Source: a virus (lineage: Duplodnaviria; Caudoviricetes). From it: a stretch of DNA of 64,000 bases. A model generated the notes under the pieces. That model had not been told where the DNA came from. It did no database searches and was given only the letters and a program-made list of their open reading frames with translations. The stretch lies in the IMG/VR virus record IMGVR_UViG_3300026077_000001. One strand, given 5' to 3'. Every line of letters starts with the position of its first letter. Position 1 is the first letter of the stretch. The position numbers and the translations under genes were made by a program. Below are positions 1-64,000 of this stretch, one piece after another.

Positions 1-23
1 ATACCTGTAGTAAAAGAGTGTAA

Positions 24-3000
24 ATGTCTGGCAATAACGCCTGGTTCGAACAAAATTGTGATCCTGATGACGTAGTAGAAAGTACTGAACCCGTTGCGTC
101 AGGTGGTGGTCCTATTGGTGCACCTGGCGGTGGAGCTTCACCTAATACTGTTAATGCTGTCATCGAACAACTCATTGGACAGTGTTACGGGACACCTATA
201 CCAAGGAAGCCAAACTTTAGGGATGATGATGACGATGATGACGATGATGAATTCGAGCTTGACTGGGAATACTTAGTACCAACATTAACTGGACACGGTT
301 GGCCACCACCAACTATAACCAAGATAAAATTAAAGATACCAACAACAGATAATCCAGGTGAACCTAATATTTGCTTCGCTGAGAATGGTGAGGAGATAAA
401 GTGTGACCACGGAAAGGATCCTACCCTAGAGGATTGTATTAAAGAGCATTTGAAGTGTGTCTTTAAACCTTACGTTGGTGGTGCTTGGAAACCACCAGCA
501 GCAGACTGTGATTCGTTTGTACCAGCTTCAATGTTTGGTACGACAAAGAAAATATGTGTACAGGATTGTGTAACAGATAGAGTACCAGTATACGAACACA
601 TCTTAGGTGATACTCCTACAGCTACTGCAGCCTTCAGTGATAAAGATACTGTCACAGTAACAGGTAGTGGTACTTGTCTCTGTACCTTTGAGCATAGATG
701 GAAAGACCAAGAGTATACTGCTGGTACTGCTGTAGATACTATTACTATTAATGGTACTACGTTCACCCGTTCAGGTACCCGTGGAAAGACGACACAGACT
801 ATCGCATTAACCGCAGGAAATTATCCCATAACTTATGGAGGTTTACACCCCACTGGTGGATATAATATTGAGGTGAATCAAGAGTATGGTACTAATAAGA
901 CTGTCGTATTCAGAGATGGACACGGTTCTGATGTCAACGGTAGGTTTAGTATTCTATCTAGCAATATATCTTCCGATCATATGTACAGCTTGAGCCCGAC
1001 TGCTCCAGCTGGGTACTTACAGAACAGTACACCAATGTTCTATGCACACAACGTGCAACAGGCTCGTGGTGCGTTCCCTGTGTACACGTCATACTCATCA
1101 ATGAATGTAGATCATATGCTTACCACTGACCCAGCTGGTGAGAAAGCAACGATGGATTCTCAAGGGTTCGGTGCACGGGATGAAGTATTGTTCTACGGGT
1201 TCACAGACAAACAGGATATGATATCAGAAATGATGGATGGAGAAACTCCTGTGACACTTTATAGGTATTACTCCCCTGAAAGTAAGGATCATATGTATTC
1301 CACCACACCTATTGGTGGTCCTCCTATTGAAGCTAACCTAGAGGAAGGATATTATATGTTATCGAGTAAGGCAGAGACTTATCTGAACTTTACTTTTAAT
1401 TGTAGACAGGGATCAGCAAGTTATGACAACACAATGGGGTTCTATCTATGTAATGCTGACGATGAACCTGTACACGGTAGAGTTATACTAGAGAACGCAA
1501 CTGATGCTAGTGGTACGTTTACTTACAAAGTACCAGTTGATGAACTGAATCAATACATCCCTTGCAAATTAGGATTCTTTATGATACCTGACGGAGATGG
1601 ACGTGGAACTTCTCGTGGTGATGCAGTGACTTTTAGTACCCTTAATGGTGGGTGGAGAGTAGACCAGAGTGGATCTGCACAGAATAATAATACTTGGTTC
1701 TCACAAAAGCATTTGAATCCTGGTGGTAAAGATATGACCAAGTGGCCTGATAGAACGTGGCAATATTGGGAAGACTTATTGAATGGTGATGATGATTATA
1801 ATGATATGAAACAGTCATATCAATTACGTTATGGAGACAGCGAGTATATTTACGAAGGAATACAATGCTTTGTCTTTGGAGTGGATTCTAATCCAGTATA
1901 TGAGGACATCACTTCTGTAGATAAGTGTGAAGAGAGAGTGTTTGATGAGCAGTTTGTTAACTGTTCGATGACAAGGACTGAGTGTGGAGCAATGCAAGAA
2001 GAGAATGACTATGGATGTTCTGCTTGTACTGGTACTGTTGCATATAAAATGGCAACCACACAGAATGTTACTGCACTTAAGAATGCAGACCTAGAGATCA
2101 GATCACACGGTGGTATGACAGGTGGTTGGGGTGACTGTACTAAATTTACTTGGTCACTTCATAAGAATGGAGTACAAATACATTCTAAACAAGAGGATGT
2201 AAGTAAGTGGAAGAAGATTGGAACTCCTCTTTATAGTTTTAGTGTTATTAAAGGTGATCGTATCACTTGGAAGTTAGATTCTATTGATGTAGGACATTAT
2301 AATGGTAGGGTGACACCTGCTATGTCCCTACGAGATGCTACTACTAAGAAGTTCCTGAACACTTGGGAGTTATTGTTGATAACTCAGTCAAGTAGTTACA
2401 GAACTAATAACCCTGCACAGAATGATGGTAACCTAGCAACACACGAACCAACAGAACCTTGTGGTTTACCTTATAGTATTCAGTTGTATAACTTTGAAGA
2501 TGATGGTGACGATGAAGTAACTAAAGAGAATTACACTACTGTACTTACTAATCAGGTAGTTCAGAACAATGTACTTGAAGTACGTGGTGGATACCAGACC
2601 AATGAGTTGAAAGTTATAGGACGTAAACCTACTTGGCAAATGGTCAATGGTGACACAGGATACATTAATACTACTGGTGACTATGGTTTCACAGTTAAAC
2701 TTCAGTGGACAATGCACGATGATGATAACGGTGAGACTGACTGGAAGTTAATAGAGGTAATTGATTGGGGTAAAGGTGGATACTATGTTGATGATGAGTG
2801 TAAATTATTTGTTGGTAAGTATCCAGAGGATGATGATGATAATTCTGGATCTTTCTACCTAGGTATGAAGGTAACAGGCATCAATGATGTTGAATGTCCT
2901 GCTGCTGGTAGTACACAAGGTAGGATCCAAGACCTACAGTTACAAGCATCACACGAGAGAGATCAATCAACACCTAGACAGTTAGATGTATTGGTTGTAG

Positions 3001-42564: not shown

Positions 42565-43143
42565 ATGTCACTCAAAGAAGCAACGTGGGAACACCACAAA
42601 AGAGCAGAAGAACAACCATTTGTAGGTATGATGTTTGGAGGTAAGTTACATCCAAAATCATATGCTATATTCTTATACAATCAGATCCAACAGTATGATG
42701 TATTAGAGGACACAGCATCAAAGAATGATGTACTAACAGGACTAGAAGATATCAATAGATATCCTGGTTTAGTTAAAGACTTCCAAGAATTATGGGGAGA
42801 GTATGGTGGAGAAGCAGAGATACCACCAACTTTAGAAACAACCAACGAGTTTACTAAGTACATTCTGGAGATTGATAAAGATCCTAGTTCAGAGAGTAGA
42901 CAAAAAAGATTGATGGCACACATCTACACACGTCATATGGGTGATCTTATGGGTGGACAGATGCTTGCTAAGAAAGTACCAGGATCTTCAGCAATGTATG
43001 AGTTTGCTGACCCAGAAAAACTGAAAGGTGCTATTCGTGCTAAACTAGATGATTCAATGGCAGATGAAGTAAGAGTTGCTTACAAGTTTGCTACCAGTAC
43101 ATTCAAGGAGATGCTACCTTACGCTAATGTCAAAGAAGAGTAA
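42565..43143 (+). CDS. ho1: Heme oxygenase
   Basis: LKEATWEHHKRAE (proximal His); AHIYTRHMGDLMGGQML; MYEF. Confidence 0.92.
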   Translation: MSLKEATWEHHKRAEEQPFVGMMFGGKLHPKSYAIFLYNQIQQYDVLEDTASKNDVLTGLEDINRYPGLVKDFQELWGEYGGEAEIPPTLETTNEFTKYILEIDKDPSSESRQKRLMAHIYTRHMGDLMGGQMLAKKVPGSSAMYEFADPEKLKGAIRAKLDDSMADEVRVAYKFATSTFKEMLPYANVKEE

Positions 43144-43297
43144 CGACACAAATTTCTGGTCTTCATTTATTAACTATGAAACTCATCCACCCACTCTTAA
43201 ACGTCTATCCAAAAAGGTTAGAGAAGAGACTGCCAAACGAGTCAAGCAGTTAAAGGAGAGAATGGATGAGTTTAATAATAACACCAGACGACCCTAA
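43127..43297 (+). CDS. Small hypothetical protein
   Basis: Start MSKKSND overlapping the ho1 end. Confidence 0.5.
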   Translation: MSKKSNDTNFWSSFINYETHPPTLKRLSKKVREETAKRVKQLKERMDEFNNNTRRP

Positions 43298-43880
43298 ACC
43301 AGTTGAGTACATTCCAAATTATGTTTGGAGACTCAACTATGATTTTGAGTATGAACAAGGTGGTTCATTACAATATGATATTGGGTCATTATTAGATACA
43401 GTTAAAAAGAATTCAGAACTAGAGAGCAACAACGCATTTAGTACAGCGTCAGCATCACTAGAACCTTATGCACCCCATAATTGGGAGTGCTTAGAGAAGT
43501 TTTTATATATTATTCACAAACAGTTGGTTCCAATTTGGAAGCACTGGGGTTATTTCGATTGTCGCATTGCACCACGTGAGTCTTGGATCAATATCCACAA
43601 GCGTGGTGGAATAACCACAGAGCATTTACACAGTCCCTGTCCTATGGTAGTCTCTTGTTATCTCAAGGCACCACGAGGATCAGGGAACTTTTTAATTAGA
43701 GATCCATTAGAGTATCATCGCTTTGGTTCTCCACAGGTACCAGAACAAAATTTATGGAGAGAGATACCAGTTCAAACAAATGACATACTGGTATTTCCTG
43801 GTTGGTTGAAGCACGCAACACAACCAAATAATACTGATGAAGATCGCATTAATCTATCAATCAATTATGAAGGTCATTAA
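43266..43880 (+). CDS. 2OG-Fe(II) oxygenase (TIGR02466-like)
   Basis: EHLH...FPGWLKH...RINLSIN. Confidence 0.82.
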   Translation: MSLIITPDDPKPVEYIPNYVWRLNYDFEYEQGGSLQYDIGSLLDTVKKNSELESNNAFSTASASLEPYAPHNWECLEKFLYIIHKQLVPIWKHWGYFDCRIAPRESWINIHKRGGITTEHLHSPCPMVVSCYLKAPRGSGNFLIRDPLEYHRFGSPQVPEQNLWREIPVQTNDILVFPGWLKHATQPNNTDEDRINLSINYEGH

Positions 43881-44385
43881 CAAACTGCTTCCAGAATTAT
43901 ATGCAGACAGAATTCACGAGATGATGTCAGGAATAAAATTCAACTGGCATTTTTTAGATGATATAACATATGCTAATGAAGGTCCACATCAACGAGGTAC
44001 ACCAGGATTTGCACACCTATTCTTTGATGAACAAGAGGGAATAGAATCAGAGTGTTTGGATTTTGTATATCCTATGCTCTTACACTTTATACCTAAGAAA
44101 CATAAACTACTGAGGATTAAGGGAGGGTTGCTTTTAAGTACCAAAACAGGATATAATAGACCACATATTGATTTTGATATACCACACACTACAGCACTAT
44201 ATTATGTCAATGATTCTGATGGTGAAACTATCTTCTTTGATGAAAATGGTACAATCACAGACAAGATTAAACCAGAGAAAAATAAACTCATTATTTTTGA
44301 TGGTTCTAAGATGCACGCATCGAGTTCACCTACCTACGCTACAAATAGAATTGTGATTAATTTTAACTATGTCTGTACTGATTAA
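43867..44385 (+). CDS. 2OG-Fe(II) oxygenase
   Basis: PHID, YYVNDSDGET, HASSSP, RIVINFN. Confidence 0.85.
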   Translation: MKVINKLLPELYADRIHEMMSGIKFNWHFLDDITYANEGPHQRGTPGFAHLFFDEQEGIESECLDFVYPMLLHFIPKKHKLLRIKGGLLLSTKTGYNRPHIDFDIPHTTALYYVNDSDGETIFFDENGTITDKIKPEKNKLIIFDGSKMHASSSPTYATNRIVINFNYVCTD

Positions 44386-45058
44386 CTACTACCAATACGA
44401 AGGTGCTGAAAATGTCACAGACATACTAGATTCACCTCTATCAATAGATGGTGTTGGCATTGAACCAGAGAGAACTCTGGATAAAATGCCTAAGACAACA
44501 CCATACTTAGATTGTCCTGCATTTACTCATAAAGCATCACGTGAGTGGATAGTATATGCACCTAAAGATATCACACTAGAGATTGATAATGATAATTCAC
44601 AAATAATATGTAAGCAGTTAAATGCTCAAGATTTAAACAGAACAGTACAGGTACAAAATAAGAGAGCACCAATAACAACATTACAATGTTGTATGCCTAT
44701 GTTAATATGTTGGACTTGTTGTAAAAATATATGGGTAGAGGTTAAAGATTATCCACTCACTTCACTTAATAATAATTTCACAGTAGTTCAAGGATGGTTC
44801 AATCTATCATCTTGGACACGTCCAATATCATTTGGGTTGAATATTGTTGACAATACTAAACCTGTTATCATTAAGCGTGGTGATCCATTATATAAAATAA
44901 ACTTCATTCAAGAGGGTAATCTCAATCAAGATTTTAGATTTGAAAAGGCAATGCCACCTGAAGATCTATTAATCCAAATGAATAAGAGAGTGAGGGTGAA
45001 GGGATTCATCAACAACTTAGCAAAGACTCTTATGTTTAAACAATGTCCATTCAAATAA
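44369..45058 (+). CDS. DUF6065-like / dUTPase-fold protein
   Basis: CPAF...W..YAPKD; GWFNLSSWTRP...IKRGDPLY. Confidence 0.55.
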   Translation: MSVLINYYQYEGAENVTDILDSPLSIDGVGIEPERTLDKMPKTTPYLDCPAFTHKASREWIVYAPKDITLEIDNDNSQIICKQLNAQDLNRTVQVQNKRAPITTLQCCMPMLICWTCCKNIWVEVKDYPLTSLNNNFTVVQGWFNLSSWTRPISFGLNIVDNTKPVIIKRGDPLYKINFIQEGNLNQDFRFEKAMPPEDLLIQMNKRVRVKGFINNLAKTLMFKQCPFK

Positions 45059-45741
45059 ACTATCTACAATATGAGTCACCAGACTGGTCACTTGATAGAG
45101 CACTAGACTCTTCATTGACACTAGATGGTGTTGGGTTTGAACCTGAGAGATATTATGATACGTTTGATCCTAGTAAAACAATATATCATTCTTGTCCTGC
45201 TTGGCAGCATAAGGTGAAACGGGAATTTGTGATACGGGCACCTAAGCATATTGAATTAAGAATGAATAGAGAAGAGCAGTTCATCACATCTAATATTGAA
45301 GGTGATCTGTTTCATCAAATAATACAACCACCACCAAATTGGGAGGTGGATCAGACATTTCAAATACATATACCTATCTTCTTAATGTGGACAAGATCAA
45401 AGAATGTATGGGTAGAACAGAAACAATGTAATGGTAATAACTTTAAGGTAGTAGAAGGATGGTGGAATCTATCTGATTGGTCACGTCCTATTGGATTTGC
45501 TATTAACTTTATAGATGAGTCTAAACCTATTATAATTAGAAGAGGAGATCCAATATATCGTGTAGCATTCTCTCAAGAGCATAACCATAATCAAACATAT
45601 AATATGGTTAAATCTACACCAACAAGTAAACAATTACGTGATGCACAAAAGAGAGTAGATACTAAGAATCTATTCCCTAGAATCACACACAATCTTATTT
45701 TTAACACGACTAAATGTCCTTTTAGATTATGGCAGAAATAG
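45043..45741 (+). CDS. Paralog of 44369-45058
   Basis: CPAW...RAPKH; GWWNLSDWSRP...IRRGDPIY; same C-terminal CPF. Confidence 0.55.
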   Translation: MSIQINYLQYESPDWSLDRALDSSLTLDGVGFEPERYYDTFDPSKTIYHSCPAWQHKVKREFVIRAPKHIELRMNREEQFITSNIEGDLFHQIIQPPPNWEVDQTFQIHIPIFLMWTRSKNVWVEQKQCNGNNFKVVEGWWNLSDWSRPIGFAINFIDESKPIIIRRGDPIYRVAFSQEHNHNQTYNMVKSTPTSKQLRDAQKRVDTKNLFPRITHNLIFNTTKCPFRLWQK

Positions 45742-46391
45742 TACCAACAACTATTATTGATAGATTTTTTGAGACACCAAGTTTAGTGCGAAAGTATGCA
45801 CAATCACTTGAATATTATCCTTGTACTGAACATCCAAACAGAGGGTATTGGCCAGGTAAGAGAACTAAACTCATACAAGATTTAGATCCTGTTTTTCACG
45901 AGATTATATGTAGAAAGATAATTAAATACTTACCAAGTTATCGTGCATTTGAGATAGCAGACGCAGCATTTCATATTAGTACAGGTGAGTGTGGTAGTGG
46001 ATGGATACACACAGATGATGACCATTTAGGAATTGGTGGTGTTATCTATCTTAATCCAGATATGACTGAGGATAGTGGAACAACAATATATGATGTACCT
46101 GCTGGTGCTGAAATGCAAGGATATGAAGAGGAGTTTCATAAGGCAATGGAAGCACAAGGTACTGAAGCGATTACTAACTTTGATAAGTATAAGGAGGAGT
46201 GTAATTCATATTTTAATGAGTCTATCAAGGTGCAAGCACGTTACAATCGTGCTATAATATTTGATGGACGTAAGTATCACGGAGGACAGAACTTCTATGG
46301 TTCTACATCTGATGATGCAAGACTAACCTTAGTATTCTTTGGCAGGGGAATTAATGACTACCAATCATATGACGCAAGATTTGAATGTTGA
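45729..46391 (+). CDS. 2OG-Fe(II) oxygenase-like (DUF6445-like)
   Basis: WPGKRT, WIHTD, GVIYLNP, YNRAIIFDGRKYH, RLTLVFF. Confidence 0.75.
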   Translation: MAEIVPTTIIDRFFETPSLVRKYAQSLEYYPCTEHPNRGYWPGKRTKLIQDLDPVFHEIICRKIIKYLPSYRAFEIADAAFHISTGECGSGWIHTDDDHLGIGGVIYLNPDMTEDSGTTIYDVPAGAEMQGYEEEFHKAMEAQGTEAITNFDKYKEECNSYFNESIKVQARYNRAIIFDGRKYHGGQNFYGSTSDDARLTLVFFGRGINDYQSYDARFEC

Positions 46392-47016
46392 TACTATACG
46401 TGATGGCAAATTATATGTCATTCGTAATGGTTTATCAATCGAGACTTGTGAACAATTAAAAATAGAATATATGATGATTAAGGATGTTGTCGAAACACAG
46501 TATTCGGGACCAACTTCTGATCCTATAATGCCAGGTGCATTTGCAATGTATTCACCAGTATGTTTTGAAGCAATGGGACAACACATACAACCACAGATTG
46601 AACAGGTGTTAGATACACAATTACATCAAACATTTAGTTATGCCAGAGTATATGTTAAAGGAACAAATTTAGTAAGACATAGAGATAGAACAAGTGGTGA
46701 ATGGGTTGCTAATGTGTGTATAACAAGAGACGATACTGATTGGCCCTTGTACTTAGAAATGGAGGGTAAATCACATCAAGTTCTTATGAATCAAGGAGAT
46801 ATATGTATCTTCCGAGGACATAAAGATTTCCACTGGAGACCTAAGTACACAGGTGAGTTACAGATACAAGCATTCGTATCTTATGTTGATGCAAATGGAA
46901 AATATGCTAAGAACAAATATGATGGACGACCAATGTTATCAATGCCTTGGGAGTCAGCAGCAGACTTCATTAAAGAAGAACAAGCAATGATTAACTCATC
47001 ACCCTACTACACATAA
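46354..47016 (+). CDS. 2OG-Fe(II) oxygenase-like
   Basis: LVRHRDR, WPLYL, GDICIFRG...HWR; exact start uncertain. Confidence 0.78.
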   Translation: MTTNHMTQDLNVDTIRDGKLYVIRNGLSIETCEQLKIEYMMIKDVVETQYSGPTSDPIMPGAFAMYSPVCFEAMGQHIQPQIEQVLDTQLHQTFSYARVYVKGTNLVRHRDRTSGEWVANVCITRDDTDWPLYLEMEGKSHQVLMNQGDICIFRGHKDFHWRPKYTGELQIQAFVSYVDANGKYAKNKYDGRPMLSMPWESAADFIKEEQAMINSSPYYT

Positions 47017-47017
47017 T

Positions 47018-47683
47018 ATGAAGTTCACAGTACAGTCACCATTTAAGACACAATTTAATAATATGCAAGACGTTATTGTCTTTGATGATATAATCCCACC
47101 AGTATATCAGAATTGGTTAATAGATTGTATTAAGAACCCTGATCTCAAATGGATGATTAAGGACAATGCAATTAGTGATTTATTTGAAGATGACCCTCGC
47201 AATGGATATTGTAATTTCCATTATTTGTATGAAGTAGAACAGGGTGAGTTATCACCATTATGCAACGCATTTATGCCTCTAGCATTACAGTTCAGAGATA
47301 AGTTAAAGGCAGAATCATTGCTTAGGATGAGAGTTAACCACGTACCTGCTTGGTGCTCTAACATCATTCAGTTACCACACGTTGACAGTTATGTCAAAAA
47401 CTCTTGGAATGTGGTATATTATATTGATAATTCAAATGGTGACACTATTATCTACAACGAGAGGACACAAGATCCCCAACAATATGTTGAGTTAGCAAAA
47501 CAGGATAAATTCACAGAAATGACACGAGTATCACCTAAGAAGGGTAGAGCAGTGGCATTCAAGGGTGATTTATTTCACTCATCAACAACACCAGTAGGTA
47601 CTTGGCGACCTGTTGTTAACATCAATTTAGCAGAGCAACCACCTACTGCTAATGACATCATTTACAATCCAAACAAAAAATGA
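47018..47683 (+). CDS. 2OG-Fe(II) oxygenase
   Basis: PHVD, YYIDNSNGDT, FHSSTTP, RPVVNIN. Confidence 0.82.
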   Translation: MKFTVQSPFKTQFNNMQDVIVFDDIIPPVYQNWLIDCIKNPDLKWMIKDNAISDLFEDDPRNGYCNFHYLYEVEQGELSPLCNAFMPLALQFRDKLKAESLLRMRVNHVPAWCSNIIQLPHVDSYVKNSWNVVYYIDNSNGDTIIYNERTQDPQQYVELAKQDKFTEMTRVSPKKGRAVAFKGDLFHSSTTPVGTWRPVVNINLAEQPPTANDIIYNPNKK

Positions 47684-48348
47684 CCTATAAAATTAAAGAT
47701 GGTGAGGACTGGGTATTGTACAGATCACCAGTTGTAGAGCACGAGCAAGAAGAAATGCTACGTCAACTAGGACGTGGTTATAGACTCTTCAAAGAGACAT
47801 TTACTGGTCTTGATAGTTCTTTAAGGCAAGAGGGTTTAACACTCGGTGCACTGCCATCTCTGTTCAATGTAGATCACGTTAAGAAGGATAGAGAGCACTT
47901 AGATAATATGGACACTAACTATTCTGGTTATCGGTTCTATAATCTATTTTCATTGACTGCACCATCACCATTATTCTGGTTATTGCTACAAGATATAAGG
48001 ACAGTAGTTAGAACAACGTTAGGAACTGATGAACCATTATGGATGCAATGTTGGGTTAATATGCACAAACCAAATGAAGTATTAAATTGGCACGATCATA
48101 AGTTTGATTATCACGGATATGTAAGTATTGACCCAAAGAACAGCATAACAAAATTTAGAGATAGTAGAGGTCCATTATATGAAATAAATAATGAAGTTGG
48201 TAACATTTATTTCGGACCTGGATGGGAACGAATGCACAAAGTATGTGTTAATGAAGAGTACGAAGGTAATAGAATTACCCTAGGATTTGATATAGAAACA
48301 CGAGGTGACTTACCAGACGACCAGTTCTCTCTTATCCCTTTACTGTGA
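47680..48348 (+). CDS. 2OG-Fe(II) oxygenase-like
   Basis: WVN...WHDH...HKV...RITLGFD. Confidence 0.7.
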   Translation: MTYKIKDGEDWVLYRSPVVEHEQEEMLRQLGRGYRLFKETFTGLDSSLRQEGLTLGALPSLFNVDHVKKDREHLDNMDTNYSGYRFYNLFSLTAPSPLFWLLLQDIRTVVRTTLGTDEPLWMQCWVNMHKPNEVLNWHDHKFDYHGYVSIDPKNSITKFRDSRGPLYEINNEVGNIYFGPGWERMHKVCVNEEYEGNRITLGFDIETRGDLPDDQFSLIPLL

Positions 48349-52206: not shown

Positions 52207-53121
52207 ATGAAAGATACCATATTATATGGAGATTGTCGAGAGACTCTCAAACAATTTGATGAAAAGGCGAGGATGTGTGTAACATCACCGCCTTATTATG
52301 GTTTAAGAAACTATGGTAACGAGGACAATCAAATTGGATTAGAACAAACACCTGAAGAATACATTAAACAATTAGTTGAAGTATTCAGGTCAGTTCGTGA
52401 TGTACTTACGGATGATGGAACACTATGGGTAAACATAGGTGACACATACTATAATTACAGATCAGATGGTAATTATCCTAAGCAAACAGTATCTAAAACT
52501 AATCAAGATTTACCAACATTTACACCAGTTAGAGGTAACAAGTTTGATAACTTAAAATCTAAGGATTTAATTGGTATACCTTGGATGTTGGCATTTGCTT
52601 TGAGGGATGATGGATGGTTCTTACGTCAAGATATAATATGGCATAAACCAAATCCAATGCCTGAAAGTGTTAGAGATAGATGCACTAAATCTCACGAATA
52701 TATCTTCTTATTATCAAAGAATAAGAGATATTATTATGATAATGAAGCAATCAAAGAACCTGCTAAGGACTGGGGAACCAGAGATAGAACCAATGGCAAG
52801 TATCACAATAAAGGAACTGGACTGCAACCACATTCAGGATTGACCAAATCATATCCTATGAAGAATAAAAGAAGTGTGTGGTCAGTCACGTCCAAACCTT
52901 ATAAAGGTGCTCACTTCGCTACTTTCCCACCTGATTTGATAGAACCTTGTATCAAGGCAGGATCTTCACAAAATGACATAATTCTTGATCCATTTATGGG
53001 ATCAGGCACAACTGCAATGGTAGCAAGGGAACTGGGTAGGCATTACATAGGATGTGAGTTACATAACGACTATTCTAACCTAGTTCAGAAGCGATTAGGG
53101 TTGTTCCAGTTCACAAACTGA
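52207..53121 (+). CDS. Beta-class N4-cytosine/N6-adenine DNA methyltransferase
   Basis: TSPPY motif IV precedes DPFMGSGTT motif I; IIWHKPNPMPESVRDR. Confidence 0.92.
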   Translation: MKDTILYGDCRETLKQFDEKARMCVTSPPYYGLRNYGNEDNQIGLEQTPEEYIKQLVEVFRSVRDVLTDDGTLWVNIGDTYYNYRSDGNYPKQTVSKTNQDLPTFTPVRGNKFDNLKSKDLIGIPWMLAFALRDDGWFLRQDIIWHKPNPMPESVRDRCTKSHEYIFLLSKNKRYYYDNEAIKEPAKDWGTRDRTNGKYHNKGTGLQPHSGLTKSYPMKNKRSVWSVTSKPYKGAHFATFPPDLIEPCIKAGSSQNDIILDPFMGSGTTAMVARELGRHYIGCELHNDYSNLVQKRLGLFQFTN

Positions 53122-55275: not shown

Positions 55276-55432
55276 ATTTATTTTTGGATGTGTGTGCATC
55301 TTTATGGGTGTTAACATTCTAATCAATGTTATGAATAGCACAATGGTTGACAGTTGGGAAGAGAGGAACAGGACACTTCAAGAACTGACACAACCAAATC
55401 CCATTCAACCCTAAAATCAAGTATATTATAAA

Positions 55433-55543
55433 TGTGGGGGATGGTTCGATTCCATCACTAACGTGGATACGAAGATCTAGGTCTAAAGATTCGTGAACTG
55501 CTTCTAAGAAGAGAAAGCACGAAATTACTAGGTCATTCCCACA
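55433..55543 (+). ncRNA. Structured RNA candidate with a tRNA-like T-arm
   Basis: GATGG-TTCGATT-CCATC; closing TGTGGG/CCCACA; GATCTAG/CTAGGTC; TTCGTG/CACGAA; follows an early promoter. Confidence 0.6.
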
Positions 55544-55564: not shown

Positions 55565-55804
55565 ATGAATTTATTTGATGCAGTTCCAACAGTTGTAAGA
55601 GACAATTTTCAAGGATACGACAAGGGTGAATCAATTTCAGTTAAAGAGATCACCAACGCAGTATTTCAGGTAATTGATCTATGTGACAACTTTGACAAGG
55701 ACACCATCAAAATGACAACATTTAGACAAATCCGTCTAATGGTCTCAAATGGTGTTGATATGTTACTCAATGACCCGATTCAATTTAACGAGGTAATGTT
55801 CTAA
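55565..55804 (+). CDS. Hypothetical protein
   Basis: 79-aa ORF coupled to the nuclease gene. Confidence 0.65.
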   Translation: MNLFDAVPTVVRDNFQGYDKGESISVKEITNAVFQVIDLCDNFDKDTIKMTTFRQIRLMVSNGVDMLLNDPIQFNEVMF

Positions 55805-56322
55805 TGAATGTTGTTATTGACAAGATGCAATCACCCGAAGCAAAGTATCAACAACTGTTCGAAGCAATGTATCAACTTTGTGACGAAAATAACTGGGGAG
55901 ATCCTTTCAGTTATGCACGAAGCAGAGAGATACATTTAGCGAGCATACTTGGGCACCGAGTTAGTGATACTTTATCAGGTGCAGATGCCTATGATGAGAA
56001 TAACTTACCAGTTGAATATAAGTCAACTATTGGTAAGAAACTAACAGCAACTTATAACGGCATAAGTGTACAAAACTCGTGGGAGGAGCAAGTTAACTAT
56101 CTTAGAGAAGATAAGATAGGTAAGTATCACAAACACTTCTTTGCTAGGTATCATTTAGGCAAGGTAGTTGAGATTTGGGTTATGAATGCGGATGACGTAT
56201 TACGCATACTAATTGATAACCTAGAGAGACAATTTAAGACAGTTGGTAATAAGAAAGACCCCAGACTTGGGTACACTATTAGTAACAAACTCATCCAAAC
56301 TTACGGAACTAAAGTATTATGA
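55804..56322 (+). CDS. PvuII-fold type II restriction-like endonuclease
   Basis: GADAYDENNLPVEYKS matches PvuII GNDAVDNAGQEYELKS spacing; KIGKY and C-terminal GTKVL also correspond; recalled sequence, no search run. Confidence 0.7.
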   Translation: MNVVIDKMQSPEAKYQQLFEAMYQLCDENNWGDPFSYARSREIHLASILGHRVSDTLSGADAYDENNLPVEYKSTIGKKLTATYNGISVQNSWEEQVNYLREDKIGKYHKHFFARYHLGKVVEIWVMNADDVLRILIDNLERQFKTVGNKKDPRLGYTISNKLIQTYGTKVL

Positions 56323-56700
56323 GCATTGAACAATTAAACCCAGAGAGAGAACAATCCATTGATCTTATTGCTGAAACTTATTACAATCGTATGAAATTAC
56401 ACGTTGATAATAATAACCCACGCAATGCAGAAGCACTATGTTTAGAATACTTAGTGGACGGAATTGACCCCGAAGATGGTAACTATTCCTGGATGTTCTT
56501 ACAACATTTAGATAGTTTGTTTGAGTGATTACAGTCCTTAAGTATGACTTTAAACTGCTTAATCTGTTCCCTTAATTAACAATCAAATGGCAGAATCCAT
56601 CCTTGAAAACAACTCTTACCTAGTTGAATTATTTGATGAATGTGTTAATGGTAATGACATATTAGCATTACTAGATGAACTCTACCCTAGTGTGGACTAA
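56319..56700 (+). CDS. Two small ORFs (56319-56528, 56587-56700)
   Basis: ORF track plus hand translation. Confidence 0.55.
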
Positions 56701-56737
56701 TTTACATTTAGTCTATGACAATTAAATAAGTGGCACA

Positions 56738-56762
56738 GAACCCCTGTTATCAGGGGTTTTTT
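56738..56762 (+). terminator. Intrinsic terminator inside a promoter spacer
   Basis: AACCCCTG-TTAT-CAGGGGTT followed by a T-run. Confidence 0.7.
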
Positions 56763-57999: not shown

Positions 58000-58329
58000 A
58001 TGAATCCCTTTAAAAAAATTGATAACGATACCTATCAAGATGATGCTGGTATTTTATACAAACCTATCCCTAATTACGAGGACTATTTTGTATCTAACGA
58101 AGGACAGATATATTCAACTAAGTGGGGTAAATGGAAGAAATTAAAGATACATTTAAACGAAAATGGATATAGACGTGTTACTTTAAGACAAAATGGTAAG
58201 ACAGTTGTAAGAAGATGTGCACGATTATGTGCTCTTGCTTATCATCCAGGCGGAACAGATTACCAGAACGTTATTCACATTGACAAAAACAAATTGAATG
58301 ACCAAAGTAATAATCTAAAATGGGTATAG
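58000..58329 (+). CDS. NUMOD4-HNH homing-endonuclease-like protein, probably degenerate
   Basis: PIPNYEDYFVSNEG, GYRRVTL, CARLCALAY, HIDKNKLN...NLKW. Confidence 0.75.
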   Translation: MNPFKKIDNDTYQDDAGILYKPIPNYEDYFVSNEGQIYSTKWGKWKKLKIHLNENGYRRVTLRQNGKTVVRRCARLCALAYHPGGTDYQNVIHIDKNKLNDQSNNLKWV

Positions 58330-60217: not shown

Positions 60218-60259
60218 TAAACCCCTTAAAACCCCTCCTCCGCCGAGCGACGCAACATT

Positions 60260-60775
60260 ATGGAGATTAATGATAGATTCTTAGATCCGTATGAATATGG
60301 ACAACTAAGAACGGCTATAGAAGCAGATACCTTCCCTTGGTACTATGGGAGGAAGACCAATCATATTGCCCAGATGTTTGATCCTGACTTAATTAAGAAG
60401 GAGAAGTATAACTGGCATATGTTTAACCTAATGTACTCTAATGGGGTTCCTATGACCCCTGAGTACGACCTTATACTAGGATTAATAAACAAGATTAAAC
60501 CGAGGGCAATTATACGAGTGAAGGCGAATATGACCCCAGTTGCGGATACTGTCCGTGAGTTTGAAATGCATAACGACATAAACGATGATAAAAAAGGGGA
60601 ATCAAAGACCTCAATCTACTATATAAATGATAACGATGGTTTTTCCTTATTTGAAGATGGTTCGAAAATTGAATCAGTAGGGAACAGGTTAGTAACATTT
60701 CCTGAGTCTATGATGCATTGCGGAACGACTTCAACTGACGAAAGACGTATTGTAATAAACTTAAACTACTTTTAA
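60260..60775 (+). CDS. 2OG-Fe(II) oxygenase
   Basis: MHND, YYINDNDG, MHCGTTST, RIVINLNY. Confidence 0.85.
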   Translation: MEINDRFLDPYEYGQLRTAIEADTFPWYYGRKTNHIAQMFDPDLIKKEKYNWHMFNLMYSNGVPMTPEYDLILGLINKIKPRAIIRVKANMTPVADTVREFEMHNDINDDKKGESKTSIYYINDNDGFSLFEDGSKIESVGNRLVTFPESMMHCGTTSTDERRIVINLNYF

Positions 60776-60777
60776 AA

Positions 60778-61335
60778 ATGCAAATGGATTGTTGTGTCAT
60801 TTGTGGCACCACTGAGAACCTACATCATCACCATATTATACAAAGGAATTCGAAACTAGCTGATGATATGATCGGCAAAGAGTATGAAGGTTCTACTATA
60901 GACAGGGATTGGATTAATAACCACCCACATAACCAGATTACAGTATGCGTCCCACATCATAAGTGGGTACACGGTTTGAGATATTCATTAAGAGACAAAG
61001 CTTGGTCTGAGAGTGTTAAAAGAGGTCAAGCAAAGGCAAGAGCAGAAGGTAGATTACCTGGTGCACCTAGACTTGCTGATGAGAAACGTGATATGATCTA
61101 TAAGATGTACGATGAAGGTAAGAAATGGATAGAGATTAGAGAAGAGGTAGGAGTAGGTTTTAACAGTATATCCAAATGCTTACGAGCTAGAGGAACGAAG
61201 CTTAATCGTATTAAGCGTGACTTCAATGATACGTATTGGGACGGTAAAGCAGACCTATGGTTTAAGGAAGAACAAGAAAGACTGAAGAAACCACGTATCA
61301 AGCGTGATTTCTCAGATTTAGCACTATTAAGTTAA
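60778..61335 (+). CDS. HNH endonuclease with C-terminal helix-turn-helix
   Basis: CVICG...HHHHII...NQITVC..HH..VH; resolvase-type HTH (IREEVGVGFNSISKCL). Confidence 0.7.
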   Translation: MQMDCCVICGTTENLHHHHIIQRNSKLADDMIGKEYEGSTIDRDWINNHPHNQITVCVPHHKWVHGLRYSLRDKAWSESVKRGQAKARAEGRLPGAPRLADEKRDMIYKMYDEGKKWIEIREEVGVGFNSISKCLRARGTKLNRIKRDFNDTYWDGKADLWFKEEQERLKKPRIKRDFSDLALLS

Positions 61336-61337
61336 TT

Positions 61338-61601
61338 ATGGAAATCCCTGAATTTGAATCATATGAAGCCGAATTGGAATGGAGGTTTGAAAGGATTGCT
61401 GAATCCATCAAGACTCTTGCCAAACAAGCTCAGTCTCACGAAGCGTTCTTAAAGCGTGGAGCAGAGATGATACAGTATAAGATACCAGGAACAGATAAGT
61501 ATTCTAATCTAAAAGAAGTGTTTGACGATCTATATGCCCGACTAAATAAGTTGGAGGTACATTACCTAAATGCCAGCTTACCTGATAGAGACAGGACGTA
61601 G
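61338..61601 (+). CDS. Hypothetical protein
   Basis: 87-aa ORF. Confidence 0.65.
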   Translation: MEIPEFESYEAELEWRFERIAESIKTLAKQAQSHEAFLKRGAEMIQYKIPGTDKYSNLKEVFDDLYARLNKLEVHYLNASLPDRDRT

Positions 61602-64000
61602 TTATCAGAATCCCGTAGATTCACACGAATACTCCCGTTCATATACAACTGAAGATCATCAAGCATTTGCCCAGTTCGGTCCTGGTGGGTATCAGATTAA
61701 GGTGGAAGGAAGTGGTCCTGGATCATATGAATTTGGAAAAGATGAAGTTTATTATATCGGAACACAGGTTGAGACTTGCGTTGCTAACTGTGATGCGGAA
61801 AGAAGACCTATATGGAGATGGTTCTCTTGTAGGAGAGTAGATCATACTTGGCATTACTTAAAAGAACTACCTGATAGCGTTCCTTTTAATCCTAGACGTT
61901 ATAATGCAGAACCTAGGAATAAGAGGGAGGTCTTTTATCTTTCAGAGAAGAGTCTGACTGGTAATCAAGAGTTATTCTTATTATATGACGCTGCAAACTT
62001 TAATAGTTATTTCTCTACAGTTAGTGGTGCTAGTACAGTAGCAGCATCATTTGATTCAAGTGGTAATCTAGTTTGTACAGGATCAGGTACCGCTACGATT
62101 ACATTTAACTTTAGTTGGAACGATAATCCTAGTACTGCTGGTACTGCATTAGGAACATATGCAATTCCTAGTCTGAATATATCATTTACTCAAAGTGGAA
62201 GGACTGGTACTGCAGTTCCACAGACTGCTACGATTACAGGTGGTCAAACATACAACTGTACCATTACTAATGGTAACTCAGCAGGGTTTACCTTACAAGA
62301 TAGTAATACTAAGATATGCTTTAAGGATGGAGACGGTAGTGATTGCAATGCTTCACTTACTACAGGTATACTTAATGACCCAGGTAACTCAGTTGCTAGT
62401 CTAGGACATATCTGGTCTTCATCTGCTGCAGCAGTCTCTGCAGGTGTAACACATCCTGGTGAGTCACTAATACCTCTGTATCATTATAAGAGGTTAGATA
62501 TCATCGATGATTTCTATACTACAGACCCAGCTAATGAGTACAACCTAGAGATGGACATTCCTGGTGTCCCTAACTGTAAGTTACCACTAGATCAGGCATA
62601 CAAGTATCAAGGTATATTGGGATATGTGTTCTCTAGAAATGCACCACGTAAGAAGAAGCAGGTTGTTGAATCAGGTAAACCTATCAATACTGGAGAGGTT
62701 TCTAGGTCAACTTGGTACGAATGGGATGAAGATGGAGGCTATGGAGAGGAAGATTATAACGAACAATCACCCCCTGCAAGCACTTTAGGTTGGGGAAACC
62801 CCGATAATGCCGAATTAATCGATGAAAAAGGCAATTTTGAGTGGTATTATGGCAAAAATGGTGCTGTAAAGGCAGCTTTACCCCGATTTTTGGGTTTTCA
62901 CGACGCTTTTGAGGGTCAATTCGTGTATTATTTGTATGATACCGTATTTCCCTTCTCTGGACCCATATATGGCATCAATTTGATCACTACTGATGCACCT
63001 TGTAATCCGTCTACTGCTGACTGTCCACACGACCCGCATACAACTTACCACTCTTATTACTATCAGATGCGTCAAGATGCGTGGGTGACCCAAAAAACAC
63101 ATATTGCAGTCGATGCACCAGCTGGAAGTGGTCTTCAAGAGTCATTTTGGGCTGTAGGAACCGATGATTTGATGATATTCTTCCGATATACGAACGAAGA
63201 TGGGTTCTATACGGTTGGAGAACAGATAAATGGTTGGTTGATCCAAAGTGTAAGGTATTTTGGTGATGAATTAAGATGTGGTTATATGAGATTACAACCT
63301 ATAGCAGGTCAAAATGGCAATACTTTCCAATATCAACAGACATTTAACTCTGATAATGGAGCAATTGCTTCAATTTTAGCTGGATATGGTATAAAAGACA
63401 AAGCGTGTTTCTTTGGAGTATATGAATTTCCAAAGAAATTGTCGTATTATAAGGTAGAAATTGATAATGAAGCACAGATACCCAAAAGAGATTTTGATGA
63501 AGCTATACTAGAAGCAACAGTTAATGATGCAGGACAAATAGGATCTATTGAAATCATCAATGGTGGTAGAGATTATACTAACCCACAGGTGGTTATTTCT
63601 ATTCCTGACCTTGCAAGACAAGAAGGATACTCTGATACTGCGTCTCATATACCAGAAACCTTCGAAGATAACGTATCTGGAGAGATTGCAATCAGTTATC
63701 AGACTAATGATGACTTTAAAGAGGCAGGTTATGATGCTACAAACGTTGCAGGTAACGTAAAAAATCAACAATATATCACTGAAGCTGGATATACTGGTAA
63801 TATTAAGCAAGCAGAAGCGACTGTTACTATAGATGCATTAGGTTGTGTCAAGACAGTAACCATTGCTGACCCAGGTGCTGGTTATCAACCTGGTGAAGAA
63901 GTACAGATCTCTGTAGTACAACGTGATAAAAAGACTCGTAGTGACTCATATGTTGCTGAAAGTGCTGTAGGACTTGAAGAAGAATTGGATAGATCACTAA
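61570..64000 (+). CDS. Large virion structural protein (baseplate-wedge-initiator-like), 3-prime truncated by the window; absent from ORF track
   Basis: MPAYLIETGRSYQNPVDSH...; the frame appears open to the window end (810 codons); GRDY/GAGY repeats. Confidence 0.75.
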   Translation, partial: MPAYLIETGRSYQNPVDSHEYSRSYTTEDHQAFAQFGPGGYQIKVEGSGPGSYEFGKDEVYYIGTQVETCVANCDAERRPIWRWFSCRRVDHTWHYLKELPDSVPFNPRRYNAEPRNKREVFYLSEKSLTGNQELFLLYDAANFNSYFSTVSGASTVAASFDSSGNLVCTGSGTATITFNFSWNDNPSTAGTALGTYAIPSLNISFTQSGRTGTAVPQTATITGGQTYNCTITNGNSAGFTLQDSNTKICFKDGDGSDCNASLTTGILNDPGNSVASLGHIWSSSAAAVSAGVTHPGESLIPLYHYKRLDIIDDFYTTDPANEYNLEMDIPGVPNCKLPLDQAYKYQGILGYVFSRNAPRKKKQVVESGKPINTGEVSRSTWYEWDEDGGYGEEDYNEQSPPASTLGWGNPDNAELIDEKGNFEWYYGKNGAVKAALPRFLGFHDAFEGQFVYYLYDTVFPFSGPIYGINLITTDAPCNPSTADCPHDPHTTYHSYYYQMRQDAWVTQKTHIAVDAPAGSGLQESFWAVGTDDLMIFFRYTNEDGFYTVGEQINGWLIQSVRYFGDELRCGYMRLQPIAGQNGNTFQYQQTFNSDNGAIASILAGYGIKDKACFFGVYEFPKKLSYYKVEIDNEAQIPKRDFDEAILEATVNDAGQIGSIEIINGGRDYTNPQVVISIPDLARQEGYSDTASHIPETFEDNVSGEIAISYQTNDDFKEAGYDATNVAGNVKNQQYITEAGYTGNIKQAEATVTIDALGCVKTVTIADPGAGYQPGEEVQISVVQRDKKTRSDSYVAESAVGLEEELDRSL

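What the first reader, a model, noticed from the sequence alone, without database searches (positions are those of the whole stretch)
1..64000. The tetramer CATG appears completely absent from 64 kb
I checked the base preceding each ATG line by line and found no CATG. A rough estimate from base composition (about 37% GC) is around 200 sites. Other palindromes (GATC, AGCT, GTAC, TGCA, ACGT, TCGA, GGCC) do occur. Codon choice bends around the site: His-Gly, His-Asp and His-Glu use CAC in the cases I read, and Pro-Trp is written CCG-TGG (15699, 16361, 22397, 38128) or CCT-TGG although CCA is common elsewhere. This indicates strong selection against a CATG-cutting nuclease, either host-encoded (NlaIII/FatI/CviAII-type specificity) or the phage's own. 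I also noticed no CCGG or GCGC but did not count them systematically.
Basis: partly seen in the sequence, partly recalled or inferred. Interest (0 to 1): 0.85.

Follow-up and report, generated by a model that had tools for sequence, protein, structure and literature searches.

The report
CATG-free cyanophage with its own nuclease
A marine cyanobacterial virus has no CATG anywhere in its DNA, apparently so that its own restriction enzyme, which has lost its protective methylase, can cut host or rival DNA without cutting the virus.

Summary
CATG occurs 0 times in 64 kb, against about 240 expected. The avoidance is made by synonymous codon choice: His-CAT never precedes G (0 of 92), NCA never precedes TG (0 of 96), and NNC never precedes ATG (0 of 155).

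The window is a T4-like cyanomyovirus assembled from a marine metagenome. Its whole clade is CATG-free: 0 sites against about 1,750 expected over 477 kb of related contigs. Close relatives P-RSM6 and P-TIM40 have normal CATG, so the loss is specific to this lineage. The absence of CCGG, GCGC and CGCG is also real, but it is family-wide.

ORF 55804-56322 is a PvuII-fold type II restriction endonuclease with an intact D/E-x-K catalytic site, and it is under purifying selection. In 18 viral lineages that carry it, CATG is the most depleted of 136 tetramers in 16 and third in 2.
- Where a methyltransferase abuts the nuclease, CATG is only partly depleted (observed/expected 0.2-0.6).
- Where no methyltransferase is found, as here, CATG is nearly always zero.
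- Four newly fetched loci fitted this rule.

Best reading (about 0.6): a solitary CATG-cutting enzyme carried by the phage, with self-immunity through loss of every site.

Caveats:
- Specificity has not been assayed.
- The lineages are not independent.
- S-CAM7 lacks the gene yet is CATG-poor.
- A second nuclease-like ORF lies upstream of the window.

Other readers of this scan noted the same purge in neighbouring windows.

The parts
1..64000 (.). CATG-free DNA covering the whole window, coding and non-coding. CCGG and GCGC are also absent and CGCG occurs once.
   Evidence: A near-identical TARA scaffold (99.99% identity over 13 kb) shows that the CATG-free state continues at least 38.8 kb upstream.
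55804..56322 (+). 172-aa PvuII-fold PD-(D/E)XK type II restriction endonuclease (phrog_35715), the candidate CATG-specific enzyme. Catalytic residues are D61, E71 and K73. KDPRL (151-155) is a conserved motif in the place of PvuII's NNPK recognition loop.
   Evidence: The family profile A1 matches PvuII chains full-length at E 1.7e-7 to 4.7e-15, with D-x9-E-x-K aligned. AF2 model pLDDT 96.5. Foldseek top hits are PvuII, TM 0.65-0.74. dN/dS 0.06-0.2. Homodimer model score 0.37 against best control 0.00.
55565..55804 (+). 79-aa ORF of unknown function. Its stop abuts the nuclease start, so it is probably in the same operon.
   Evidence: Conserved only in the closest relatives. No Pfam hit.
56319..56528 (+). 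69-aa ORF overlapping the nuclease stop codon. It takes the place that the small methyltransferase holds in relatives. Function unknown.
   Evidence: Homologues at 38-58% identity lie directly downstream of the nuclease in the methylase-less, CATG-free loci L016, L017, L034 and L165, and 1.3 kb downstream of it in L164. No Pfam hit.
56737..56760 (+). Intrinsic-terminator-like hairpin (10-bp stem followed by a T run) closing the three-gene unit.
   Evidence: A metatranscriptome contig ends at 56733 (run X9, record 27).
52207..53121 (+). 304-aa N6_N4 (beta-class, CcrM-like) DNA methyltransferase. It is probably not the nuclease's partner.
   Evidence: Pfam PF01555, E 8e-59. NCBIfam gives partial CcrM-like hits. 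P-RSM6, which lacks the nuclease and keeps CATG, has an orthologue. P-TIM40, also nuclease-free, has DNA methyltransferases annotated in the syntenic region, but orthology was not tested.

Best explanation
The phage carries a solitary type IIP restriction endonuclease of the PvuII fold (55804-56322) that most likely recognises CATG.

In other marine viruses the same enzyme comes with a methyltransferase next to it, a classical restriction-modification pair, and those genomes keep some CATG sites. In this clade of T4-like cyanomyoviruses no such methylase is found. The genome is instead protected by having no target: every CATG has been removed, mostly through synonymous codon choice, over the roughly 190 kb that readers of neighbouring windows also report as CATG-free.

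The enzyme, encoded among small genes typical of an early region, could then cut any DNA in the infected cell that contains CATG. That means the host chromosome (for nucleotide scavenging and shut-off) and co-infecting phages, while the phage's own DNA is spared.

What is shown:
- the absence of CATG and its codon-level origin;
- the fold, the catalytic residues and purifying selection on the enzyme;
- the association of the gene with CATG depletion;
- the methylase-present/partial versus methylase-absent/total pattern.

What is inferred:
- CATG specificity;
- cleavage activity;
- the target, whether host DNA or competitor DNA;
- the timing of expression.
For: 1. Fold and chemistry.
- The profile of 49 homologues matches R.PvuII end to end, with PvuII's D58/E68/K70 aligned to D61/E71/K73.
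- The AF2 model (pLDDT 96.5) superposes on PvuII at TM 0.65-0.74.
- A dimer through the N-terminal helices, as in PvuII, is supported: score 0.37 against best control 0.00. That mark was reached by 21 of 30 solved homodimers and 0 of 23 monomers.

2. The gene is maintained. dN/dS is 0.06-0.2 among window-lineage copies.

3. Unbiased association.
- Of 136 tetramers, CATG best separates nuclease-bearing from nuclease-free genomes.
- It is the single most depleted tetramer in 16 of 18 nuclease-bearing lineages and third in the other 2.
- These include viruses outside the cyanomyoviruses. In G011 (44% G+C) CATG is by far the most depleted tetramer. L167 is a 318-kb jumbo-type contig. L022 is another such virus.
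- In 8 nuclease-free genomes CATG ranks 4th to 12th.
- With four more isolates added: observed/expected is 0-0.63 in the 18 carriers and 0.66-0.97 in 11 of 12 non-carriers (one-sided Mann-Whitney p = 2e-5, not corrected for phylogeny).

4. Methylase rule.
- A 176-197-aa NPPF methyltransferase starts about 5-70 bp after the nuclease in L007-L015, L018, L032, L033, L166 and P-TIM68, and lies 7 kb away in P-SSM2. An N6_N4 methylase lies within about 450 bp in L022-L031 and L167. All of these keep CATG at observed/expected 0.11-0.63.
- The window, L002-L006, L016-L017, L034, L164, L165, G007 (102 kb) and G014 (50 kb) have no such methylase. Each has 0 CATG against 41-356 expected.
- Four loci fetched after the rule was formulated all fitted it.

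5. A clade trait. The ten nearest relatives by gp32 (98% down to 63% identity, G+C 38.6-44%) all have 0 CATG. In total, 477 kb shows 0 sites against 1,748 expected.

6. Same-host relatives keep CATG. P-RSM6 and P-TIM40 (host NATL2A) have normal CATG. P-SSM2 and P-SSM5, on the same host strains, carry the nuclease and P-SSM2 is half-depleted. Depletion therefore follows the gene rather than that host.

7. Distant family members that lack the KDPR motif sit on contigs with normal CATG: L160 8 against 7 expected, L163 21 against 23.

8. The gene region is present in contigs from three marine metatranscriptomes.
Against: - No biochemical evidence of cleavage or of CATG specificity. PvuII itself cuts CAGCTG, and no characterised CATG enzyme could be compared because REBASE is not available here.
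- Synechococcus phage S-CAM7 (complete genome) lacks both the nuclease and the small methylase. It nevertheless has CATG 128 against 715 expected, and GGCC 0 against 235. Strong CATG depletion can therefore arise otherwise.
- Cyanomyoviruses show many other lineage-specific tetramer purges of unknown cause: CCGG almost everywhere, GTAC, AATT, AGCT and GAAC in single lineages. Total purges are thus not unique to this word.
- The methylase-less, CATG-free lineages share synteny and are not independent. The nuclease tree gives at most 2-3 state changes.
- L019 (no methylase within 7 kb, CATG 3 against 18 expected) and L020/L021 (about 0.5) do not fit cleanly. Their contigs are too short to exclude a distant methylase.
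- A second restriction-like ORF (336 aa) lies 25 kb upstream of the window in the same genome.
Near-identical contigs from four samples are CATG-free there, but I could not read the record itself.
- The presence of the region in RNA libraries does not prove transcription.
Confidence: 0.6

Rival explanations
1. Host restriction alone. A CATG-specific restriction system in the picocyanobacterial hosts (NlaIII/FatI-like) selects against CATG in phage DNA. The PvuII-like enzyme has another specificity or role and is tolerated for unrelated reasons.
For: - S-CAM7 has CATG 128 against 715 expected without the nuclease or the small methylase.
- Cyanomyoviruses carry many other purged tetramers that look like classical restriction avoidance.
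- The methylase rule is also compatible with methylase-bearing phages being shielded from a host enzyme.
Against: - The trait follows the phage clade across G+C 38.6-44%, and it follows the gene across unrelated virus types.
- P-RSM6 and P-TIM40, on the same host strain as the nuclease-bearing P-SSM2 and P-SSM5, keep CATG.
- A methylase-less restriction enzyme under purifying selection must have no sites in its own genome. CATG is the only word that fits in every carrier.
- No other 6-bp palindrome is associated with the gene, and CAGCTG is at expectation in the window.
Confidence: 0.22
2. The CATG-specific nuclease is the other restriction-like gene of this genome, the 336-aa ORF about 25 kb upstream of the window (motifs PKAD...SHK and FQQYGG). 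The PvuII-like enzyme would then cut something else.
For: - The ORF exists in near-identical contigs.
- S-CAM7, which is CATG-poor, has a 29%-identical homologue, annotated 'type-2 restriction enzyme' in one record.
Against: - Equally distant homologues sit in S-T4 (CATG 43 against 55 expected), S-CAM9 (45 against 51), G003 and G004 (0.66-0.75).
- P-SSM2, P-TIM68 and the fetched parts of G008, G009 and G011 are CATG-depleted without it.
- It cannot explain the depletion in nuclease-plus-methylase carriers.
Confidence: 0.08
3. There is no nuclease selection. CATG is lost for another reason: mutational bias, avoidance of internal start-like or protein-binding motifs, or an assembly or processing artefact.
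For: None that is specific. Mild CATG under-representation (0.66-0.9) is general in these phages.
Against: - An exact zero against about 1,750 expected is seen across independent assemblies from many samples.
- The avoidance appears in all three codon phases and in non-coding DNA.
- One-mismatch neighbours are enriched, not depleted.
- Sister lineages are normal.
Confidence: 0.03

Closest known systems
R.PvuII (type IIP restriction endonuclease, Proteus hauseri; Pfam PF09225)
   Same: Same fold, same size (157 against 172 aa) and same D-x9-E-x-K catalytic spacing. An N-terminal helix forms the dimer interface, and the ends are collinear.
   Different: About 21% identity. The window protein itself does not reach the Pfam model.

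PvuII's HHH and NNPK recognition elements are replaced by Y-N-G-I-S...W-E-x-Q and KDPRL.

PvuII's site CAGCTG is at expectation here, 9 against 8.

PvuII always travels with M.PvuII and a controller protein, whereas this gene has no adjacent methylase.
Chlorovirus restriction-modification systems, e.g. R.CviAII/M.CviAII of PBCV-1 (cuts C^ATG). Recalled from established literature, not tested here.
   Same: A lytic virus of a photosynthetic microbe encodes a restriction enzyme for a 4-bp site (the same word, CATG, for CviAII) that is used to degrade host DNA early in infection.
   Different: Chloroviruses protect themselves by methylating their own sites. The window lineage apparently has no methylase and no sites. 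The host is eukaryotic.
Phage T4 host-DNA nucleases EndoII/EndoIV, with a hydroxymethylcytosine genome (established knowledge)
   Same: The same logic: a T4-like phage degrades host DNA with nucleases to which its own DNA is chemically or informationally immune.
   Different: T4's immunity comes from a modified base. Here it would come from sequence content alone. The enzyme families differ.
Host-driven restriction-site avoidance in phages (e.g. GATC-free Staphylococcus phage K; palindrome avoidance surveys). Recalled.
   Same: Complete or near-complete absence of a short palindrome, achieved by synonymous codon choice.
   Different: There the selecting nuclease is the host's. Here the depletion tracks a phage-borne nuclease gene and the presence or absence of its methylase.
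Known CATG enzymes NlaIII, FatI and Hin1II
   Same: The presumed recognition word.
   Different: NlaIII is recalled to be of the HNH type, not PD-(D/E)XK. No sequence comparison was possible with these tools.

Membership tests
PvuII-like type IIP restriction endonucleases (PF09225) | PvuII three-dimensional fold | tested here: met
   AF2 model pLDDT 96.5. Foldseek top 12 PDB hits are all PvuII, TM 0.58-0.74, E down to 6e-7. The top Swiss-Prot hit is P23657.
PvuII-like type IIP restriction endonucleases (PF09225) | PD-(D/E)XK catalytic residues at PvuII's positions (D58, E68, K70) | tested here: met
   D61, E71 and K73 align with them. K73 is invariant, and D61 and E71 are at least 90% conserved in 49 homologues.
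PvuII-like type IIP restriction endonucleases (PF09225) | Significant match of the protein itself to the curated Pfam model | tested here: not met
   No Pfam hit for the window protein even at E = 1. Only 9 of 49 homologues hit PF09225, best E 2.8e-6. Homology is visible only at the profile and structure level.
PvuII-like type IIP restriction endonucleases (PF09225) | Homodimer through the N-terminal helices | tested here: met
   Prediction only. Score 0.37 against best control 0.00, with the interface at residues 11-40. The mark was reached by 21 of 30 solved homodimers and 0 of 23 monomers.
PvuII-like type IIP restriction endonucleases (PF09225) | Recognition of CAGCTG | tested here: not met
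   CAGCTG occurs 9 times against 8.2 expected in a genome with no linked methylase, and it is not associated with the gene. The recognition-loop residues differ. This is indirect evidence only, with no assay.
Type II restriction-modification system | Cognate methyltransferase gene adjacent to the endonuclease gene | tested here: not met
   In the window the flanking ORFs are 79 and 69 aa with no methylase features. The small NPPF methylase is absent from the window, G007 (102 kb), G014, G010 and G017. The feature is met in relatives: P-TIM68, L007-L015, L018, L022-L033, L166 and L167.
Type II restriction-modification system | Sequence-specific double-strand cleavage that is blocked by the cognate methylation | not testable with these tools
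   This needs an enzyme assay and a methylome.
CATG-specific restriction enzymes (NlaIII/FatI/CviAII group) | Cleavage at CATG | not testable with these tools
   Only comparative inference is available: CATG is the most depleted tetramer in 16 of 18 carrier lineages.
CATG-specific restriction enzymes (NlaIII/FatI/CviAII group) | Sequence homology to a characterised CATG enzyme | not tested
The Swiss-Prot and PDB fold searches returned only PvuII and methyl-dependent PvuII-fold enzymes.

The most novel reading that the evidence does not exclude
A widespread clade of oceanic T4-like cyanophages has turned a restriction enzyme into an offensive weapon. It has discarded the partner methylase and erased the enzyme's 4-bp target from its entire genome of about 190 kb. 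Self and non-self are then told apart purely by sequence content.

The many other lineage-specific tetramer purges in cyanomyoviruses may reflect the same strategy with other solitary nucleases, such as the 336-aa ORF upstream. These purges include CCGG, GGCC, GTAC, AATT and GAAC.

The abundant orphan copies of the small methylase in marine metagenomes could be counter-measures of rival phages.
Probability: 0.45. Interest if true: 0.85.

Novelty: new variant of a known kind. Interest (0 to 1): 0.78.

Why it matters
How cyanophages shut down and recycle the chromosomes of Prochlorococcus and Synechococcus is poorly understood. It bears on nutrient flow in the oligotrophic ocean.

A methylase-less restriction enzyme with a target-free genome would be a simple answer to self/non-self discrimination: it is written into the sequence and needs no base modification. 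It would be the bacterial-virus counterpart of the chlorovirus restriction systems.

It would also supply a small blunt- or sticky-end CATG enzyme of a new family, together with a compact 176-aa adenine methylase.

It would give a general rule for reading phage-borne nuclease specificities directly from genome word statistics. The prediction is immediately testable in vitro and on the cultured relatives P-SSM2 and P-TIM68.

Tried and rejected
- **Single-sequence searches of the nuclease.** Searches against PDB, Pfam and NCBIfam found nothing. Only the family profile and the structure model revealed PvuII.
- **Scan of bacterial genomes.** I therefore have no bacterial context for the family.
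- **Distant homologues.** P0140, P0087 and P0110 lie on contigs of 1.5-4 kb. These are too short for word statistics beyond a hint.
- **Ortholog-by-ortholog tracing.** I tried to see what replaces relatives' CATG sites in the window. Only 44 sites came out (17 with P-TIM40, 2 with P-RSM6, 25 with S-SZBM1). About 40% kept the same amino acids (18 of 44), and the replacements are mostly CACG, TATG and AATG. The numbers are too few and the sequences too diverged to add much.
- **Small methylase.** No PDB or NCBIfam match, and only weak Pfam hits to EcoRI/Eco57I-type adenine methylases. Its class rests on the NPPF motif.
- **Protein-DNA complex model.** The window itself holds no CATG to use.
- **Literature.** Five full-text searches found no paper on CATG avoidance or PvuII-like nucleases in cyanophages.
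- **tRNA scan.** The window holds no tRNA genes.
- **Methyl-dependent cutter.** I considered whether the enzyme cuts only methylated DNA, like the PvuII-fold NhoI and Eco15I. I rejected this because relatives keep CATG sites together with an adjacent methylase, which would then be suicidal.
- **The 52207 N6_N4 methylase as partner.** Rejected because nuclease-free P-RSM6, which has normal CATG, carries an orthologue.
- **Whole genome.** It is not held, so the CATG-rich stretch reported upstream could be examined only in near-identical contigs.

Full report
**1. The observation**

CATG does not occur in the 64,000-base window on either strand.
- Base composition predicts 221 sites, and a second-order Markov model predicts 239.
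- Dinucleotide-preserving shuffles give about 163 sites (326 strand-matches, sd 17.6) and never come close to zero.
- Among all 136 strand-collapsed tetramers it is the most under-represented.
- CCGG (0), GCGC (0) and CGCG (1) are also missing.

The avoidance is visible in every codon phase of 74 crude gene calls.

| Context | Before the avoided partner | Elsewhere |
|---|---|---|
| His CAT before a G-starting codon | 0 of 92 | CAT 172, CAC 101 |
| NCA (Ser/Pro/Thr/Ala) before TG | 0 of 96 | 46% NCA |
| C-ending codon before ATG | 0 of 155 | 27% C-ending |
| C before an ATG start codon | 0 of 60 | n/a |

The purge is therefore real, strongly non-random, and made largely by synonymous choice.

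**2. What the DNA is**

The window is a T4-like cyanomyovirus (Kyanoviridae).
- It encodes gp32, baseplate proteins, gp5, tail fibres, two tryptophan halogenases and an array of 2OG-Fe(II) oxygenases.
- The nearest isolates are P-RSM6, P-TIM40 and S-SZBM1, at about 75% nucleotide identity in conserved genes.
- It was assembled from a marine metagenome and recurs in many marine metagenomes.
- The whole genome is not held.

**3. Is the purge shared?**

P-RSM6, P-TIM40 and S-SZBM1 have near-normal CATG: 191 against 218 expected, 199 against 240, and 176 against 222. All three lack CCGG; P-RSM6 and P-TIM40 also largely lack GCGC and CGCG, which S-SZBM1 keeps. Those absences are therefore widespread in the family, and CCGG is 0 in 65 of 80 gp32-anchored loci. 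The CATG loss is lineage-specific.

It is nevertheless a clade trait.
- The ten IMG/VR contigs nearest to the window by gp32 (98% down to 63% identity, G+C 38.6-44%) all have 0 CATG.
- A 102-kb contig of the same lineage (G007) has 0 against about 360 expected.
- Summed over the CATG-free contigs I fetched, 477 kb holds 0 sites against 1,748 expected. Some contigs overlap.

**4. The nuclease**

ORF 55804-56322 (172 aa, phrog_35715) has no Pfam hit of its own. A profile of 49 homologues drawn from 1.8 billion proteins matches R.PvuII over its full length, E 1.7e-7 to 4.7e-15. PvuII's catalytic D58, E68 and K70 align with D61, E71 and K73, which are invariant or nearly so in the family.

Further support:
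- The AF2 model (pLDDT 96.5) finds PvuII as its top hit in PDB and Swiss-Prot, TM 0.65-0.74.
- A homodimer through the N-terminal helices is supported: score 0.37 against best control 0.00. That mark was reached by 21 of 30 solved homodimers and 0 of 23 monomers.
- The gene is under purifying selection within the CATG-free lineage, dN/dS 0.06-0.2.
- PvuII's base-contacting elements are replaced by family-specific conserved motifs, Y-N-G-I-S...W-E-x-Q and KDPRL.
- PvuII's own site CAGCTG is at expectation in the window, 9 against 8.

The specificity is therefore expected to differ from PvuII's.

The gene sits in a run of small plus-strand ORFs typical of T4-like early regions. It is bracketed by two overlapping small ORFs and followed by a terminator-like hairpin. 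The region is present in contigs from three marine metatranscriptomes, and one contig ends at the terminator. This is suggestive of transcription but is not proof.

**5. Linking the gene to the word**

All 34 IMG/VR loci that encode a homologue are CATG-poor.

On larger samples, CATG observed/expected in 18 carrier lineages is as follows:
- 0 in six lineages: the window, G007, G014, L034, L164 and L165;
- 0.16-0.63 in the other twelve: P-SSM2 0.50, P-TIM68 0.48, G008 0.39, G009 0.40, G011 0.33, L167 0.18, and so on.

Eleven of 12 genomes without the gene lie at 0.66-0.97. Absence was checked by tblastn of 50,697 phage records and by profile search of whole records.

In an unbiased screen of all 136 tetramers:
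- CATG is the best discriminator. The next ones (CATA, CACG, ACAT, CATC) are its one-letter neighbours, which are enriched in compensation.
- CATG is the most depleted tetramer in 16 of the 18 carriers and third in the other 2.
- It ranks 4th to 12th in non-carriers.

The carriers include viruses that are not cyanomyoviruses. One is a lineage at 44% G+C in which CATG is by far the most depleted tetramer. Another is a 318-kb jumbo-type contig with tRNA synthetase and ligase genes. No 6-bp palindrome is associated with the gene.

**6. The methylase rule**

In every partly depleted carrier the nuclease is accompanied by a methyltransferase.
- Most often this is a compact 176-197-aa protein with an NPPF motif (an amino-methyltransferase with weak EcoRI/Eco57I-type Pfam hits). 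It starts about 5-70 bp after the nuclease stop codon in P-TIM68 gp051, L007-L015, L018, L032, L033 and L166. In P-SSM2 it lies 7 kb away.
- In the other virus types an N6_N4 methylase lies within about 450 bp of the nuclease: L022-L031 and L167.
- In about 1.5 Mb of control cyanophage DNA the small methylase was never seen without the nuclease. It is, however, more abundant than the nuclease in metagenomes, 5,059 against 1,363 clusters.

In the lineages with zero CATG no such methylase is present. This holds for the window, 102 kb of G007, 50 kb of G014, G010 and G017. A conserved 69-aa ORF occupies the downstream position instead.

I formulated this rule and then fetched four further lineages.
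- The two without a methylase have 0 against 77 and 0 against 74 expected.
- The two with one have 32 against 78 and 12 against 68.

On the nuclease tree the methylase-bearing cyanophage group lies inside the clade that also holds the three methylase-less, CATG-free groups. The state has therefore changed more than once, but not many times.

The pattern is what a restriction-modification pair with CATG specificity predicts. With the methylase, sites are tolerated but still selected against. Without it, only a site-free genome survives.

**7. The apparent contradiction upstream**

Earlier readers of neighbouring windows reported two things. First, the CATG-free state continues for about 100 kb beyond this window. 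Second, a stretch ending 26.9 kb before the window start has 21 CATG in 5 kb, with a sharp boundary, and a 336-aa restriction-like ORF lies just inside the CATG-free side.

I could not read that record. I walked upstream instead on a TARA scaffold that is 99.99% identical to the window over 13 kb, and on contigs from three other samples.
- From 38.8 kb upstream to 13.6 kb inside the window there is a single CATG (in psbA) against 173 expected.
- The 336-aa ORF is present.
- The DNA upstream of it (MazG, primase-helicase, UvsX, DNA polymerase) is CATG-free in all four samples.

The CATG-rich piece is therefore peculiar to the window's own record. It is either a chimeric join of a metagenome assembly or a very recent recombinant, and it does not undermine the clade-wide picture.

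**8. Rivals**

*Host restriction alone.* The strongest argument for this is S-CAM7. It is a complete genome without the nuclease or the small methylase, yet it has CATG 128 against 715 expected and GGCC 0 against 235. Cyanomyoviruses in general show striking lineage-specific purges of unknown cause:
- GTAC 14 against 224 expected in G004;
- AATT 93 against 566 in G003;
- AGCT 10 against 160 in G005;
- GAAC 5 against 147 in P-TIM40.

Against this rival:
- The trait follows the gene across unrelated viruses.
- Relatives on the same host strain without the gene keep CATG.
- A methylase-less restriction enzyme that is kept intact needs a site-free genome whatever the host does.

*The 336-aa ORF as the CATG enzyme.* Equally distant homologues sit in phages with normal CATG (S-T4, S-CAM9), and carriers of the PvuII-like gene are depleted without it. 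In the window lineage itself the two genes are confounded.

*A methyl-dependent enzyme* (the NhoI/Eco15I type, which shares the fold). This is excluded by the adjacent methylases in genomes that keep sites.

**9. Comparison with what is known, and verdict**

The enzyme works like, and is a distant structural member of, the PvuII family. It fails the curated Pfam threshold and almost certainly has another specificity.

The biology most resembles the chlorovirus restriction systems. One of these, CviAII, cuts CATG and degrades host DNA. It also resembles T4's host-DNA nucleases, but here immunity comes from sequence content rather than from methylation or a modified base.

I found no paper describing this in cyanophages.

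I rate it a new variant of a known kind. Confidence is about 0.6 that the phage's own PvuII-like enzyme is the agent that keeps CATG at zero. A simple digest with the purified protein would settle it.

Noticed in passing
window 1-64000; L001, L038, L039, L140-L159, L195-L205: Cyanomyoviruses show several other total or near-total tetramer purges that differ by lineage.
- CCGG is 0 in 65 of 80 gp32-anchored loci.
- GCGC and CGCG are 0 in the window and P-RSM6 and nearly absent in P-TIM40.
- GGCC is 0 against 235 expected in S-CAM7.
- GTAC is 14 against 224 in G004.
- AATT is 93 against 566 in G003.
- AGCT is 10 against 160 in G005.
- The non-palindromic GAAC/GTTC is 5 against 147 in P-TIM40.

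The causes are unknown. They may be host enzymes or further phage-borne nucleases.
   Followed up: partly
L181:2871-3881 (about 25-26 kb upstream of the window start in near-identical contigs): A second restriction-like ORF of 336 aa (motifs PKAD...SHK and FQQYGG) lies next to MazG. Homologues at 26-30% identity sit at the same position in S-CAM7, S-T4, S-CAM9 and S-CAM3, and also in Sinorhizobium T4-like phages. One record annotates it as 'type-2 restriction enzyme'. Its target is unknown.
   Followed up: partly
L174:6275 (= L177:15873); L175:163 and 328: In contigs nearly identical to the window's genome, almost all of the few CATG sites lie inside psbA (L176 has one in a small upstream ORF), and another sample's contig (L178) has none. 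This fits the known exchange of psbA segments with hosts, or assembly mixing in this conserved gene. It would be a natural test of how fast new sites are removed.
   Followed up: no
The record is probably chimeric or a recent recombinant at that point, in or near the MazG/primase-helicase genes.
   Followed up: partly
window 55430-55465: The sequence GGGGGATGGTTCGATTCCATCAC looks like a tRNA T-arm, just upstream of the nuclease operon, yet ARAGORN finds no tRNA in the window. It may be a tRNA remnant or a tRNA-like element.
   Followed up: partly
window 42565-48348: A tandem array of eight consecutive ORFs of about 180-230 aa on the plus strand. Judging by related loci, these are 2OG-Fe(II) oxygenase/DUF6445-type paralogues (L164, L165). 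PHROGs labels some relatives 'DNA endonuclease V', which looks like a mis-annotation.
   Followed up: no
window 58000-58329 and 60778-61335: Two homing-endonuclease-like ORFs lie in the early region. One corresponds by position to a NUMOD4-type ORF in related loci (L164, L165). The other is an HNH protein with an added C-terminal DNA-binding part.
   Followed up: no
P0272 family: The small NPPF methyltransferase that partners the nuclease forms 5,059 clusters in marine metagenomes, against 1,363 for the nuclease. Many copies are therefore probably orphans. They might protect other phages from the nuclease.
   Followed up: no
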